A DNA stretch of 64,000 nt from Lytechinus pictus (taxonomy: Eukaryota): the NCBI RefSeq assembly GCF_037042905.1, contig NC_087251.1, forward strand, positions 1,240,001 through 1,304,000. Direction: 5' to 3'. Each line of letters opens with the position of its first letter. Positions within the stretch are counted from its first letter, which is position 1. Positions 3,497-64,000 of this stretch are shown here, one piece after another. The notes beneath the pieces were generated by a model. The model saw only the letters and a list, made by a program, of their open reading frames with translations. It searched no databases and had not been told where the DNA came from. The position numbers and the translations under genes are program-made.

Positions 3497-30812
<27,316 letters not shown>

Positions 30813-38362: not shown

Positions 38363-38461
38363 ATGGCCGGGGCAGACACATCAAAGGTTCGGCTAAAGTT
38401 AGAAGAGATTGTTGTTCCTGATGAACTCGTGGAAGGAAACAAATTCCTCAAATGGGATGAG
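38363..38461 (+). CDS. PLCB: Phospholipase C-beta (PLCB1/3-like), first coding exon; gene continues beyond the window
   Basis: ATG..GAG|gtgag gives MAGADTSKVRLKLEEIVVPDELVEGNKFLKWDE (33 codons). This matches the recalled PLCB1/PLCB3 N-terminus MAGAQPGVHALQL..G(T/S)KF(V/I)KWD(D/E), which also has a phase-0 intron after codon 33. Confidence 0.85.
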
Positions 38462-38534: not shown

Positions 38535-39345
38535 TTTCAATTCAATTTCAATTCAATTTATTAATAATTCATAAAATGCAAAGCAGATATTAGACAGGAA
38601 TCACTCACACAACATGCGAGGTTAGTATACTATTACTAACCTCGCACAACGCATGTCATTTCATAATGAACTTTGACGTTTTCATTGGACAGGAATAACC
38701 GTCGTTTCTGGGAATTTATTCAACAATTTCTGACATTTTACTATAATCCCCATTTACCATGTATTGGTGAGTGAGCCAACGCAGTTCAGCGGAACAACCA
38801 AAATACAGAGACTGAAGCTTTTGGTCTAAGCAGATATATACAATAAAATGTGTATGGGAATCACAACAAAAGTCTATGGCTTGCTAAACAGTGATCCCTT
38901 TACATACAAAATATACAAACAGACACAAAAAAAAACCACACACACACATAAAAAAAAATGTTTGTGTAGGTTTTGTAGAATCAATATGCAGATAAAATAA
39001 CTTTTCTATATTTAGATTTAAAAGCATATTGTGAATGTATATTTTTTATTTCAGATGTAAGAGCATTCCATAACTTAGTGCATTTAATGATGGTAGAGTT
39101 ACGCTGAGTGAGATATATACAACAATGTGGCAAGATAGCGTTATTCTTATTACGTGTATTAAATGAGTGCTTGAATTTTCTGTTAGAAAAGAAATCTTCT
39201 AAAATAGGAGGTAGTGAGCCGTTAAAATGAGAAAACATAAAGATTGCCAATTTCAGGTTAATCAAATCAGAGAGCTTTAATGTATTTAAGTTTTTGAAAA
39301 GAGAAGTAGTATGAGCAAGGTAGTGCGAGTTCTAGTTGCAAATTT
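38535..39345 (-). mobile_element. CR1/L2-group LINE 3' fragment
   Basis: ORF 38981-39265 (H.FNTRN..KLWNAL..FKSKYRK.IL) resembles an RT C-terminus; tail AATAAA(TTGAA)n on the minus strand; interrupted by 38591-38828. Confidence 0.72.
38591..38828. mobile_element. TAGA..TCTA-ended small transposon with 9-bp TSD
   Basis: AGCAGATAT direct repeats at 38582-38590 and 38829-38837. Confidence 0.72.
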
Positions 39346-39599: not shown

Positions 39600-40043
39600 T
39601 AGACAATTGGCAGCCGTCTGTTTTGAGTTTTTTAACATTTTTAATTTTTTTCAAATTTCTCCTCGTACACAGACGGCCCGCTATCGTGCAGCCACCATTA
39701 GGGGGTTAACAATTCAAAATCCCCCCGACGGGGCTCATCGATTTTTGTCATTATTTCATTGAAAATATATAAAAAGAACTACCAAAATAAAGATTATTAT
39801 TCCGTTTTGGCCTGAAATGCACCAAAATGGGGAAAAATAAACTTAAAAGGGGAAAAAACAGTGACTTACTTCGGCTATCGCGCAACTTCACTTCCCTGTT
39901 TTATCCAAACTTAATACATAAACATATGGCCATTGAGTCCCCTGCACAGATCGAGCTAGAACTTCGGACTCTGTATTTGGTGAGTGGAGCCAACGGAGTT
40001 CAGCGGAACAACCAACATAACAGAGACCGAAGCTTTTGATCTA
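39600..40043. mobile_element. Second TAGA..TCTA element
   Basis: Shares ~70 bp of its right end with 38591-38828; ACTACTAC(T) TSD. Confidence 0.68.
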
Positions 40044-40277
40044 ACTACTACTAGCTATATGATCTCTATTCTCTTTTACTGAATTGAATTGAATTAGATT
40101 GATCGATTGATTGATAGAGTTTGTTCTTTAGTTTCATGAATAATTATTATAGTCTAATTATACAGTGTAATAGTTAGCACTTTCCACTGAATCAGAAGTC
40201 TCTACTTACCAAGAGATCTACTGTAATTTGTAAGATACATGTTCTTGTCCCATATACATGTACATGGATGTATTTTT

Positions 40278-41153
40278 AAGAGTTTAGTTGCAAAAGGGGT
40301 TAGGTCCACTTTGGACCATTCTGAGAAAAACCATGTTTTTTATTCTCACTTATTGCAATATGCTTATGAGAAACTAAATTAGAAAGTCAAAAGGGGCCTA
40401 AGCTTTCGATCCTAGCAGAATCTTCGTCGGAGGCAAAATGAGAAACTAAATTGTCATGATGTACTACCCTATCATATGAACATAAAATTTGGTATAAAAG
40501 AAATCTACCACATTTTTTTTCTATATATTTAAAAAAATATATATCATTGTGGACCTAACCCCTTTTGCAAGTAACCTGAAATGAATCCAATCTCTTGAGA
40601 TTAAAAAAGTGATTTTTCTTTGCCACTTAAATTCACATTTGAATTTAAAATTTTCTGTGGTATCATCAGAGTGACTAAAAATTTAGAGGTTTAGAGACAG
40701 AAAACTATAAAGTTTATGAAAAATGGATCTAACCCCTTTGACATAGTTCTTCAGAAGAGTTTTGTTGCAAAAGGGGTTAGGTCCACTCCAAGAAAATCAT
40801 TTTTTTTTATTCTCCCATATTGCAATATTCTTATGCGAAACTGAATTTTCATGATACCCTTCCATGAGAACAAAATAATTGGGTATAAAAGAAATCTACC
40901 TGTCTTCATATTTATTATAATTCTTTTCAAAAAAAAATCTGTGTGGACCTAACCCCTTTTGCAACTAAACTGAAATGGACATAACCCCTTTAAAAAAAAA
41001 GTGATTTTCTTTGCCATTTTAGTTCACTTTTTAATAGGAATTTCAACTTTTCTTTGGTATCATCTTATAGAGCTTCTAAAAATCTATACATTGAGACATA
41101 AAAATAAAATTTGATGAAAATTGGACCTAACCCCTTTTGCAAGTGAGCTCTTC
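40278..41153. mobile_element. Tandem dimer of a ~400-bp GAAGAG..CTCTTC MITE
   Basis: Copies at 40278-40752 and 40754-41153; TIR and internal motif TTGCAAAAGGGGTTAGGTCC. Confidence 0.8.
40395..40434 (-). ncRNA. Minimal type-I hammerhead ribozyme-like motif (Penelope-type)
   Basis: Minus strand reads GCCU CCGACGA A GAUUCU-GCU-AGGAUC GAAA GC UU AGGC: stem I, core (U4 replaced by C), 6-bp stem II, GAAA, palindromic AAGCUU. Confidence 0.65.
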
Positions 41154-41670
41154 ATATAGTTAAAAAGTTACATTAACCTTTGTTTAATGGGGGGAGGTAG
41201 GGGTGAGTGGTATGAGTTCACAAGGAACTGTTTCCAAATTGCTTATGAAACATTTTAATCAGGATGAAAATGTAATTCGGATGAGATTACTCTCTTGTAT
41301 GTGGACGGAATGGGCTTTACAAAAATGTACATGAAGTAGACTGCATTTAAAAAAAATAAAGCCAAAATGTCTGTATGAGTATTGAGTAAGAGTTTGTGCA
41401 TCATTATCATACGTTCAATATGTTGCTGGAAATTATTTCTGTAAAACATTTTTGACATTGGATTTATCATCAGCTTTGTACAGTATATGGCCATTCATTG
41501 CAAATTACAGTGTGCATACAATGTAAAATACATGTAGGCCTACATGTGTACAAAGTGGAATATTGCATTTGGGGAATGGGTTATATTGAGAAAGAGAGAG
41601 AAAAAAAAAACAAAAAAAATTGTTATACTATCAATTTATCAAACATGACAAGAAGTGTTGGTGCTTTGTA

Positions 41671-63082: not shown

Positions 63083-64000
63083 TTACTTTTGAGTTATACA
63101 CATGTATAGAATTAGGAATAAAGGAGTACCGGTAGCGTGAGAGGCGTGTGCGGGGGGACACAGCCGTATTCCTGAACAATTAAAACGGAAGCAATCATTG
63201 AGGAGGTGGGTCTTGTCTGCCATAATGATTATGGTATGTACTTTGGCAAGTATGCGTTCTTCGTAAATTGCTTGGACAGGGGACAAATCCATGCCTATCG
63301 TCCTTTGTGCAATTCGTCGAATCCGGTCTATTCTTTGTTTTGCTCGTTTGACATATTTCCGAAAGTACATACCAGGTTAAAAGTTATTACACTTTTGATG
63401 ATTGATTGATAGAACAGTTTCAGTATAGTTTTATCGATGTGAAAACTTCTAAGTTTTCGCAAGAAAAACATCCTTTGATTTGTTTTCTTTTGTACTGATA
63501 GACAATTTTGCTTCCATGAGAGCTTGTCATCAATGATTGTTCCGAGGTATTTGTACTCATGTACCTGCTCAATGACATCTCCCTGAATACGGAGTGGTTC
63601 ATGAATTTTATCACCCTTCCGAAAATCAATGATAATTTCTTTGATTTTACTGGTATTCAATATCAGGTAATGATCGTCACACCAACTGACAAAATCATTT
63701 ATCTGTGAGATATATTCATTAGGATCATTGAACAGGTAGCCTGTTATCACGGTATCGTCTTCATACTTGATTACACTGCAGGATGTCTTCGTACCTATGT
63801 TCAAGTTCAAGTGTACAACGAGAAAATAACGGGAGATAATACGCAACCTTGGGGGGCTCCAATTTGCCTCACCACCTCTCGTGACTGACAATACCCAGCT
63901 TTAACTGATTGAATTCTCGAGCAAAGGAAATTTTGGATACATAGAATTGGCCGGGGTTTACATTCATATCTATCAACATTTGTACAAGGCAATGAGGTGC
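63083..64000 (-). mobile_element. Degenerate non-LTR retrotransposon reverse transcriptase (Rex1/Babar-like)
   Basis: GAPQGCVLSP..FSLYT, KYEDDT (YADD-like), SWC..L.LN.SK.KE..IDFRK, YKYLG and QRMFFLRKLRSF are spread over three overlapping ORFs (frameshifts). Confidence 0.88.

What the first reader, a model, noticed from the sequence alone, without database searches (positions are those of the whole stretch)
40366..40452. 57-bp hammerhead-ribozyme-only insertion with 15-bp TSD and an adjacent empty site
Seen: 40381-40437 is flanked by ATGAGAAACTAAATT (40366-40380 and 40438-40452). The tandem paralog of the host MITE has a single copy of that site (ttatgcgaaactgaattttcatg, ~40831), so the segment is an insertion. 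On the minus strand the insert is almost only a minimal type-I hammerhead: stem I GCCU/AGGC, CCGACGA core, 6-bp stem II, GAAA and a self-complementary AAGCUU in place of stem III. Established: Penelope-like retroelements carry such minimal hammerheads, which are thought to cleave as dimers through the palindrome. Inference: this is an extremely truncated Penelope insertion, or a member of a tiny ribozyme-only retroposon family, lying antisense in the PLC-beta intron. This copy has C at conserved U4 and may be inactive.
Basis: partly seen in the sequence, partly recalled or inferred. Interest (0 to 1): 0.8.

Follow-up and report, generated by a model that had tools for sequence, protein, structure and literature searches.

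The report
Ribozyme-bearing 5′ stub of Penelope retrotransposon
This small insertion is the first ~60 bases of a very abundant Penelope-like jumping gene, not a new kind of element, but its many sister stubs share one start point marked by an extra G, which probably records where the element's RNA begins and how it is copied.

Summary
The insertion, the 15-bp duplication, the empty paralogous site and the minimal type-I hammerhead are real. The insert is a piece of a young Penelope-like element (RT plus GIY-YIG ORF, about 4.2 kb): 1165 exact matches to its hammerhead end in this genome. It is not an independent ribozyme retroposon. The C at core position 4 is the family consensus (28 non-C copies), not damage to this copy. 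Both ends recur. The 3′ end is the shorter of two family ends about 55 nt apart (the known PLE 'tail'). The 5′ end is where a full-length copy begins, 30 nt behind a TATA-like box. There 105 copies carry a non-element G (25 A, 8 C; a control site has 8 in all). Best reading: reverse transcription starts internally near the RNA 5′ end and runs off a capped, uncleaved transcript. This copy lacks the G and joins by 4-nt microhomology, so chance truncation stays possible for it. RNA reads did not confirm a start or a cleavage site. The scan found a stub of the same family before on other DNA (e1-7811629). The cap-G reading was not found in my literature searches.

The parts
40381..40437 (-). Unambiguously inserted part: 5′-terminal stub of a Penelope-like element, carrying the hammerhead
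   Evidence: Absent from the paralog; the 63-nt query 40378-40440 is 100% identical at 40 of 40 scored places, this one included
40375..40441 (-). Longest stretch that matches the element (67 nt), including both microhomologies
   Evidence: Comparison with long copies and full-length copy L071
40438..40452 (+). Target duplication copy at the element's 5′ junction; 40438-40441 is 4-nt microhomology with the element's start
40366..40380 (+). Target duplication copy at the element's 3′ junction; 40375-40380 is 6-nt microhomology at the short 3′ end (inferred RT start site)
40396..40434 (-). Minimal type-I hammerhead: stem I 4 bp, core CCGACGA (C at position 4), unpaired A, stem II 6 bp, GAA, palindromic AGCU; predicted cut between 40400 and 40399
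   Evidence: Sequence, fold, architecture as in PMC4209133; activity not tested
40278..40754 (.). Host repeat unit (MITE-like, ~30-bp inverted repeats) that received the insertion
40755..41153 (.). Tandem paralog of the host repeat with the empty site near 40833-40847
38363..38461 (+). First coding exon of a PLC-beta-like gene (context; the insertion is antisense and downstream of its GT donor)

Best explanation
The insert is a by-product of transposition of an endonuclease-bearing Penelope-like element. Shown: it is the element's first ~60 nt; the family has one strongly preferred 5′ end just ahead of the hammerhead and two 3′ ends about 55 nt apart; many stubs have their own target duplications. 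Inferred: the element's RNA starts, capped, at the G of GTCAT behind a TATA-like box. The GIY-YIG domain nicks A/T-rich DNA, and the RT starts internally at one of two sites that lie 60 and 120 nt from that RNA end. If it uses these 5′-proximal sites, not their read-through copy behind the ORF, it reaches the cap after 60-120 nt, often adds a C opposite the cap (the extra G), and the short cDNA is joined to the other end of the target. Two such cDNAs primed on both strands give the head-to-head pairs. The template was not cut by the hammerhead, since the stubs span the cut site. In this copy, 6 nt of primer-template pairing and a 4-nt microhomology join trimmed the G away.
For: 1165 exact copies of the hammerhead end; ORF with RVT_1 (E 9.6e-09) and GIY-YIG (E 2e-04, just under the cut-off) upstream. 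Full-length copy L071 begins at the same place. 31% of copies are lost over the 9 nt before CATTTT against 15.5% over the next 9 nt (1165, 800, 676; Fisher p 5e-16, about 184 excess ends). Base before GTCAT where the element has T: G 105, A 25, C 8 (expected 36/66/36); a control T-G step 24 nt upstream gives 4 G, 4 C, 0 A. 21 of 21 G-copies read have no sense-strand element sequence upstream; 13 have an exact duplication, and in 10 of those 13 it ends before the G. G-copies occur in several sequence variants of the family, so not one source locus. TATATTA at -30. Both arms of inverted pair L076 end in G-GTCAT. Internal RT start at two sites, extension of both strands and use of uncleaved RNA are shown in vitro for another PLE (PMC11167929); an extra G marks capped full-length L1 insertions (PMC11702581).
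Against: This copy has no extra G. Four RNA runs showed no pile-up of starts or ends and almost no reads on the 5′ UTR, so the start site is not confirmed. The textbook initiator TCA+1TTT would put the start 3 nt further in, where 68 copies begin with no G excess (14 G, 54 A). In 3 of 13 duplications the G may come from the target, and several G-copies have 2-12 other extra bases. No intact ORF among 11 long loci read. An earlier paper argued for antisense templates and self-priming for head-to-head copies (PMC3846280).
Confidence: 0.7

Rival explanations
1. Ordinary 5′ truncation: RT started at the 3′ (read-through) copy of the site and stopped by chance after the hammerhead, joining through TCAT microhomology. 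The match to the element's natural start is coincidence for this copy.
For: No extra G here; 4-nt microhomology as in truncated insertions; most copies (800 of 1165) do come from read-through RNA and end at scattered points upstream.
Against: Non-reference bases before GTCAT number 138 against 8 at the control step, so most ends at this place are not background; a structural stall would stop RT before the stems, not just after them (inference).
Confidence: 0.17
2. The fixed 5′ end is real but is not a capped start: it is a processed RNA end with terminal-transferase addition, or the start of transcripts from a few source copies that happen to begin with GG.
For: No RNA confirmation; extra bases other than a single G are common; the canonical initiator points to the A, not the G.
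Against: G dominates over A in an A/T-rich genome; G-copies span family variants; the hammerhead cut lies about 40 nt downstream and no AG acceptor precedes GTCAT, so neither self-cleavage nor splicing makes this end; TATA-like box at -30.
Confidence: 0.09
3. A tiny ribozyme-only retroposon that is itself transcribed, cleaved and re-inserted.
For: Recurrent shared ends and own duplications; one 249-bp tandem, retrozyme-like derivative exists (L112).
Against: No base or variant is private to the stubs; they lack the upstream TATA-like box; they span the cut site; 3′ ends equal those of long copies; the tandem junction occurs twice, at one locus only.
Confidence: 0.04

Closest known systems
Minimal type-I hammerheads (min-HHR) of metazoan Penelope-like elements (Cervera and De la Pena 2014, PMC4209133)
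   Same: Short helix I, unpaired base before stem II, G10.1-C11.1 pair, palindromic 15.2/16.2, location in the pLTR, many dispersed single copies ascribed to truncated PLEs.
   Different: Core position 4 is C in nearly all copies; the text I read names a U3-A8 variant but no C4 (supplementary alignments not seen). That paper does not describe fixed ends of the single copies in the parts I read.
PAc, Poseidon PLE of Anolis (Frangieh et al. 2024, PMC11167929)
   Same: Two 3′ ends separated by a tail, downstream of a hammerhead; A/T-rich targets; insertions made from uncleaved RNA; both strands extended.
   Different: Tail about 55 nt and non-coding here (ATG lies about 550 nt downstream), against 30-40 nt inside the ORF; 0-6 nt primer-template microhomology is common here, whereas PAc start was reported as non-homologous; the ORF here has the CX2-5CxxC linker of Neptune/Nematis.
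Neptune/Nematis-type EN+ PLEs (Craig et al. 2021, PMC8557442, passages)
   Same: RT, C-X4-C-X2-C linker, C-terminal GIY-YIG with CCHH residues, pLTR, inverted head-to-head copies, optional tail.
   Different: Clade not placed by a tree; the flanks read here are A/T-rich but mostly not microsatellites.
Non-LTR retrozymes of animals (Cervera and de la Pena 2020; Li et al. 2026 preprint)
   Same: Non-coding, type-I hammerhead, derived from PLE pLTRs.
   Different: Retrozymes are tandem units of hundreds of bases; this is a single 60-nt stub with one hammerhead.
Full-length L1 insertions with a cap-derived extra G (PMC11702581, passage)
   Same: Non-templated G at a fixed 5′ end beside a target duplication.
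   Different: Here the G marks 60-120 bp products, because RT starts near the RNA 5′ end, not at a poly(A) tail.

Membership tests
EN+ Penelope-like element (parent family) | Single ORF with RT and C-terminal GIY-YIG endonuclease linked to the hammerhead end | tested here: met
   ORF about 890 codons, stop about 930 nt before the hammerhead; GIY-YIG hit 21.9 bits against cut-off 22.6; copies read are broken
EN+ Penelope-like element (parent family) | pLTR with hammerhead at both ends of the ORF | tested here: met
   L071 has the hammerhead end before and after the ORF
EN+ Penelope-like element (parent family) | Optional 3′ tail and inverted head-to-head copies | tested here: met
   Ends at reference positions about 60-66 and 118-122; inverted pairs L016, L025, L029, L030, L076, L079, L108
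Neptune clade | CX2-5CxxC linker between RT and EN | tested here: met
   C-X4-C-X2-C in the translations; shared with Nematis
Neptune clade | RT phylogeny groups with Neptune | not tested
   No reference sequences fetched
Minimal type-I hammerhead of PLEs | Helix I, unpaired base after A9, helix II with G10.1-C11.1, palindromic stem III stub | tested here: met
Minimal type-I hammerhead of PLEs | Core CUGANGA | tested here: not met
   CCGACGA in 1165 exact matches; 28 non-C copies (21 T, 6 A, 1 G), patterns with slightly different flanks
Minimal type-I hammerhead of PLEs | Stem covariation | tested here: inconclusive
   The family is too young; stems are nearly invariant in 12 aligned copies
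Minimal type-I hammerhead of PLEs | Self-cleavage as a dimer | not testable with these tools
   No read-end pile-up at the cut site; co-folding did not return the hammerhead dimer
Non-LTR retrozyme | Tandem units with two or more hammerheads | tested here: not met
   Single stub between target duplications; only L112 among loci read has this form
Independent SINE-like retroposon | Own promoter and sequence distinct from the partner element | tested here: not met
   Sequence is wholly the parent's 5′ end and lacks the -30 box

The most novel reading that the evidence does not exclude
The stubs are genomic fossils of a strong-stop-like step in Penelope transposition: RT starts 60 or 120 nt from the 5′ end of a capped, sense, hammerhead-uncleaved RNA and runs off the cap. 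This one step would explain solo hammerhead copies and head-to-head inverted pLTRs, and would map the start site in vivo. A family that reached over a thousand near-identical copies with a C4 core would also show that strong self-cleavage is dispensable, or is selected against, in this PLE.
Probability: 0.55. Interest if true: 0.6.

Novelty: new member of a known kind. Interest (0 to 1): 0.4.

Why it matters
As an object it is ordinary: thousands of dispersed minimal hammerheads from truncated PLEs are known. Its value is mechanistic. The papers read call the PLE transposition mechanism and the role of the hammerhead unresolved, and have proposed circular or antisense templates. A fixed, G-marked 5′ end on tiny insertions favours a linear, capped, sense, uncleaved template, and it can be tested in any PLE-rich genome by counting junction bases, and in the existing in vitro PLE system by comparing capped and uncapped RNA.

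Tried and rejected
Rfam scan of 39800-41200 at E<=5: 10 weak hits, no hammerhead family. Fold stability of the 57-mer: z 0.44, no support by itself. Dimer co-folding of the first 46 nt gave an intermolecular stem-II duplex, not the hammerhead dimer; uninformative for a core that energy models do not capture. Run search: no RNA holder listed on record. RNA reads from X19-X22 (760, 723, 668, 659 laid; about 6% of each of three runs, 25% of one): both strands about equally, 95-98% running on into unlike sequence, i.e. mostly stubs inside host transcripts; no start or end pile-ups, no splice joints, zero depth over 7340-7480 of L071. A start at the initiator A: no G excess (the script and my note used 15 of 68, a recount gives 14 of 68, same conclusion). 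Hammerhead cleavage or splicing as source of the 5′ end: rejected on position and on lack of an AG. Copy-specific inactivation at position 4: rejected. An amplified retrozyme as source: its junction occurs at one locus. Lunse et al. 2017 is not held and was not read; it may list C4 variants.

Full report
Observation. The 15-bp direct repeat flanks 40381-40437 exactly as stated, and the neighbouring paralog of the host repeat has a single site. The minus strand reads as a minimal type-I hammerhead with 4-bp stem I, core CCGACGA, an unpaired A, a 6-bp stem II, GAA and palindromic AGCU. Rfam does not detect it. A PLC-beta-like first coding exon with a GT donor lies 1.9 kb upstream on the plus strand; the next exon was not located.

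Parent element. A search of the genome (812 Mb, 368 contigs) with 40378-40440 gave 1118 candidates; the 40 scored were all 100% identical over 63 nt. In the 30 loci fetched the match runs on, downstream into a shared tail and upstream for variable lengths. [quoted passage not shown] None of the 11 long loci held an unbroken ORF. L071 has the hammerhead end on both sides of the ORF and begins at CATTTTGCC, 553 nt before the ATG. This is an endonuclease-bearing Penelope-like element with a Neptune/Nematis-type linker (PMC8557442, passages); I did not place it on a tree.

Core variant. CCGACGA is in 1165 exact matches. A pattern for any other base at position 4 gave 28 (21 T, 6 A, 1 G); T is what CpG decay would give (inference). 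In reads of a second, coded organism position 7 is A in 275 of 455 reads while no change at position 4 is listed (8 rows not shown), so C4 seems older than this burst. U4C is reported to lower activity in vitro yet to permit viroid infectivity (PMC3088659, passage). The family ribozyme is therefore probably weak, not necessarily dead.

Recurring ends. 3′ ends cluster at two places about 55 nt apart (also as loose ends in RNA reads of both organisms). This matches the PLE tail, which in PAc lies between two internal RT start sites (PMC11167929, main text read). The window copy ends at the inner site. 5′ ends cluster at GTCAT: 14 of the 30 loci, this one included, start within 3 nt of it (script plus inspection: L004 and L018 were over-extended by chance matches; L022 counted as extended), and 5 of 30 are short at both ends. 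How those 30 were chosen among the candidates is not known, and genome-wide counts give a lower share: 1165 copies, 800 with 9 more upstream bases, 676 with 18 more, about 184 excess ends.

The extra G. Where the element has T before GTCAT, 105 copies have G, 25 A and 8 C; flank composition predicts 36, 66, 36. A control T-G step 24 nt upstream gives 4 G, 4 C, 0 A (fewer copies reach that far). I read 21 of the first 25 listed G-copies in 20 loci (four rows skipped because they had appeared; L087 and L088 are one duplicated locus). None has sense-strand element sequence upstream; 13 end at the inner 3′ site and 8 at the outer; 13 have an exact duplication of 7 nt or more, which ends before the G in 10 (directly before it in 4) and includes it in 3. 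Six of the 8 without a called duplication are parts of inverted structures. Extrapolating, some 65 G-marked hammerhead-only stubs and perhaps 100-150 in all exist; this was not counted. Both arms of head-to-head pair L076 end in G-GTCAT. A TATATTA lies at -30; TATA plus initiator motifs are described in rotifer pLTRs (PMC3846280, passages) and the D. virilis start lies in the pLTR upstream of the intron and hammerhead (PMC2377424, passages; PMC4209133, parts 1-2 of 4). An extra G from the cap marks full-length L1 insertions (PMC11702581, passage).

Mechanism. Shown: parentage, shared ends, G excess, own duplications, stubs spanning the cut site. Inferred: a capped RNA starting at that G; internal priming at the 5′-proximal site; run-off at the cap; twin priming for inverted pairs. 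In the window copy the element and target share AATTTA at the primer side and TCAT at the other side, so the G, if added, was trimmed; chance truncation cannot be excluded for this one copy.

Against. RNA reads did not show a start, a cut or splicing, and barely covered the 5′ UTR; whether organism A is the window's species is not shown. The initiator consensus points 3 nt downstream, where 68 copies begin without G excess. An antisense, self-priming model for head-to-head copies is in print.

Known and new. Dispersed single minimal hammerheads from truncated PLEs are known (PMC4209133), as are tails, inverted pLTRs and PLE-derived retrozymes (bioRxiv 10.64898/2026.07.22.740005, part 1 of 5; reviews PMC7761336 and PMC6765202, passages). 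I found no report of a cap-like G or run-off stubs in PLEs in searches, and only one paper with U4C in one search; the library lacks most subscription papers, Lunse et al. 2017 was not available, and the supplementary alignments of PMC4209133 were not seen and may bear on C4. Earlier notes call the host a sea urchin; I did not test that.

Verdict. A real but ordinary kind of object, with a testable mechanistic signal in its siblings. Interest 0.4.

Noticed in passing
L112 (G000:C2:42467590-42468240): A 249-bp head-to-tail unit made of the last ~45 nt of the 3′ UTR, the hammerhead, the tail and the first ~85 nt of the 5′ UTR, with two hammerheads: a retrozyme-like derivative of this PLE. Its junction occurs only at this locus.
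   Followed up: partly
L071:7190-7500 (minus strand); same in L062, L063, L065: The 5′ UTR of full-length copies holds 2-3 tandem ~150-bp units ending in a pyrimidine tract and AG, the last one about 15 nt before the ATG: a possible 5′ UTR intron; RNA reads did not cover it.
   Followed up: partly
L062 and L065, about 250 nt upstream of the element's 5′ UTR: A different, degenerate hammerhead-like motif (GTCC...GGAC followed by GAAAC) in the flank; probably a remnant of another PLE family. L062 and L065 are a 97% identical segmental duplicate.
   Followed up: no
L071:2976-3778: An ~800-bp palindromic MITE-like element has inserted into the 3′ UTR of the full-length copy, and its 3′ hammerhead has a 16-nt deletion.
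   Followed up: no
L061 (G000:C3:73819500-73829400), L066, L070: Long inverted head-to-head arrangements of 0.4-1.3 kb 3′ fragments, typical of PLEs.
   Followed up: no
window 40278-41153: The host is a tandem pair of MITE-like units with ~30-bp inverted repeats that appear both near the ends and internally; superfamily not assigned.
   Followed up: no
window about 6800-30800, + strand: Exons of a HEATR5/LAA1-like gene (weak Pfam hits PF20210 and PF25808, below cut-off) upstream of the PLC-beta-like exon.
   Followed up: partly
window 5246-5707, 38981-39331, 63328-63900: ORF fragments that look like ends of other non-LTR retrotransposons (by eye; Pfam gave no RT hit); a ~33-bp tandem repeat lies at 16772-17199.
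   Followed up: no
RNA runs X19-X21 on L071:7615-7690: Several A>G and G>A differences confined largely to one read direction in the tail region; could be editing of inverted-repeat duplexes or copy variation.
   Followed up: no
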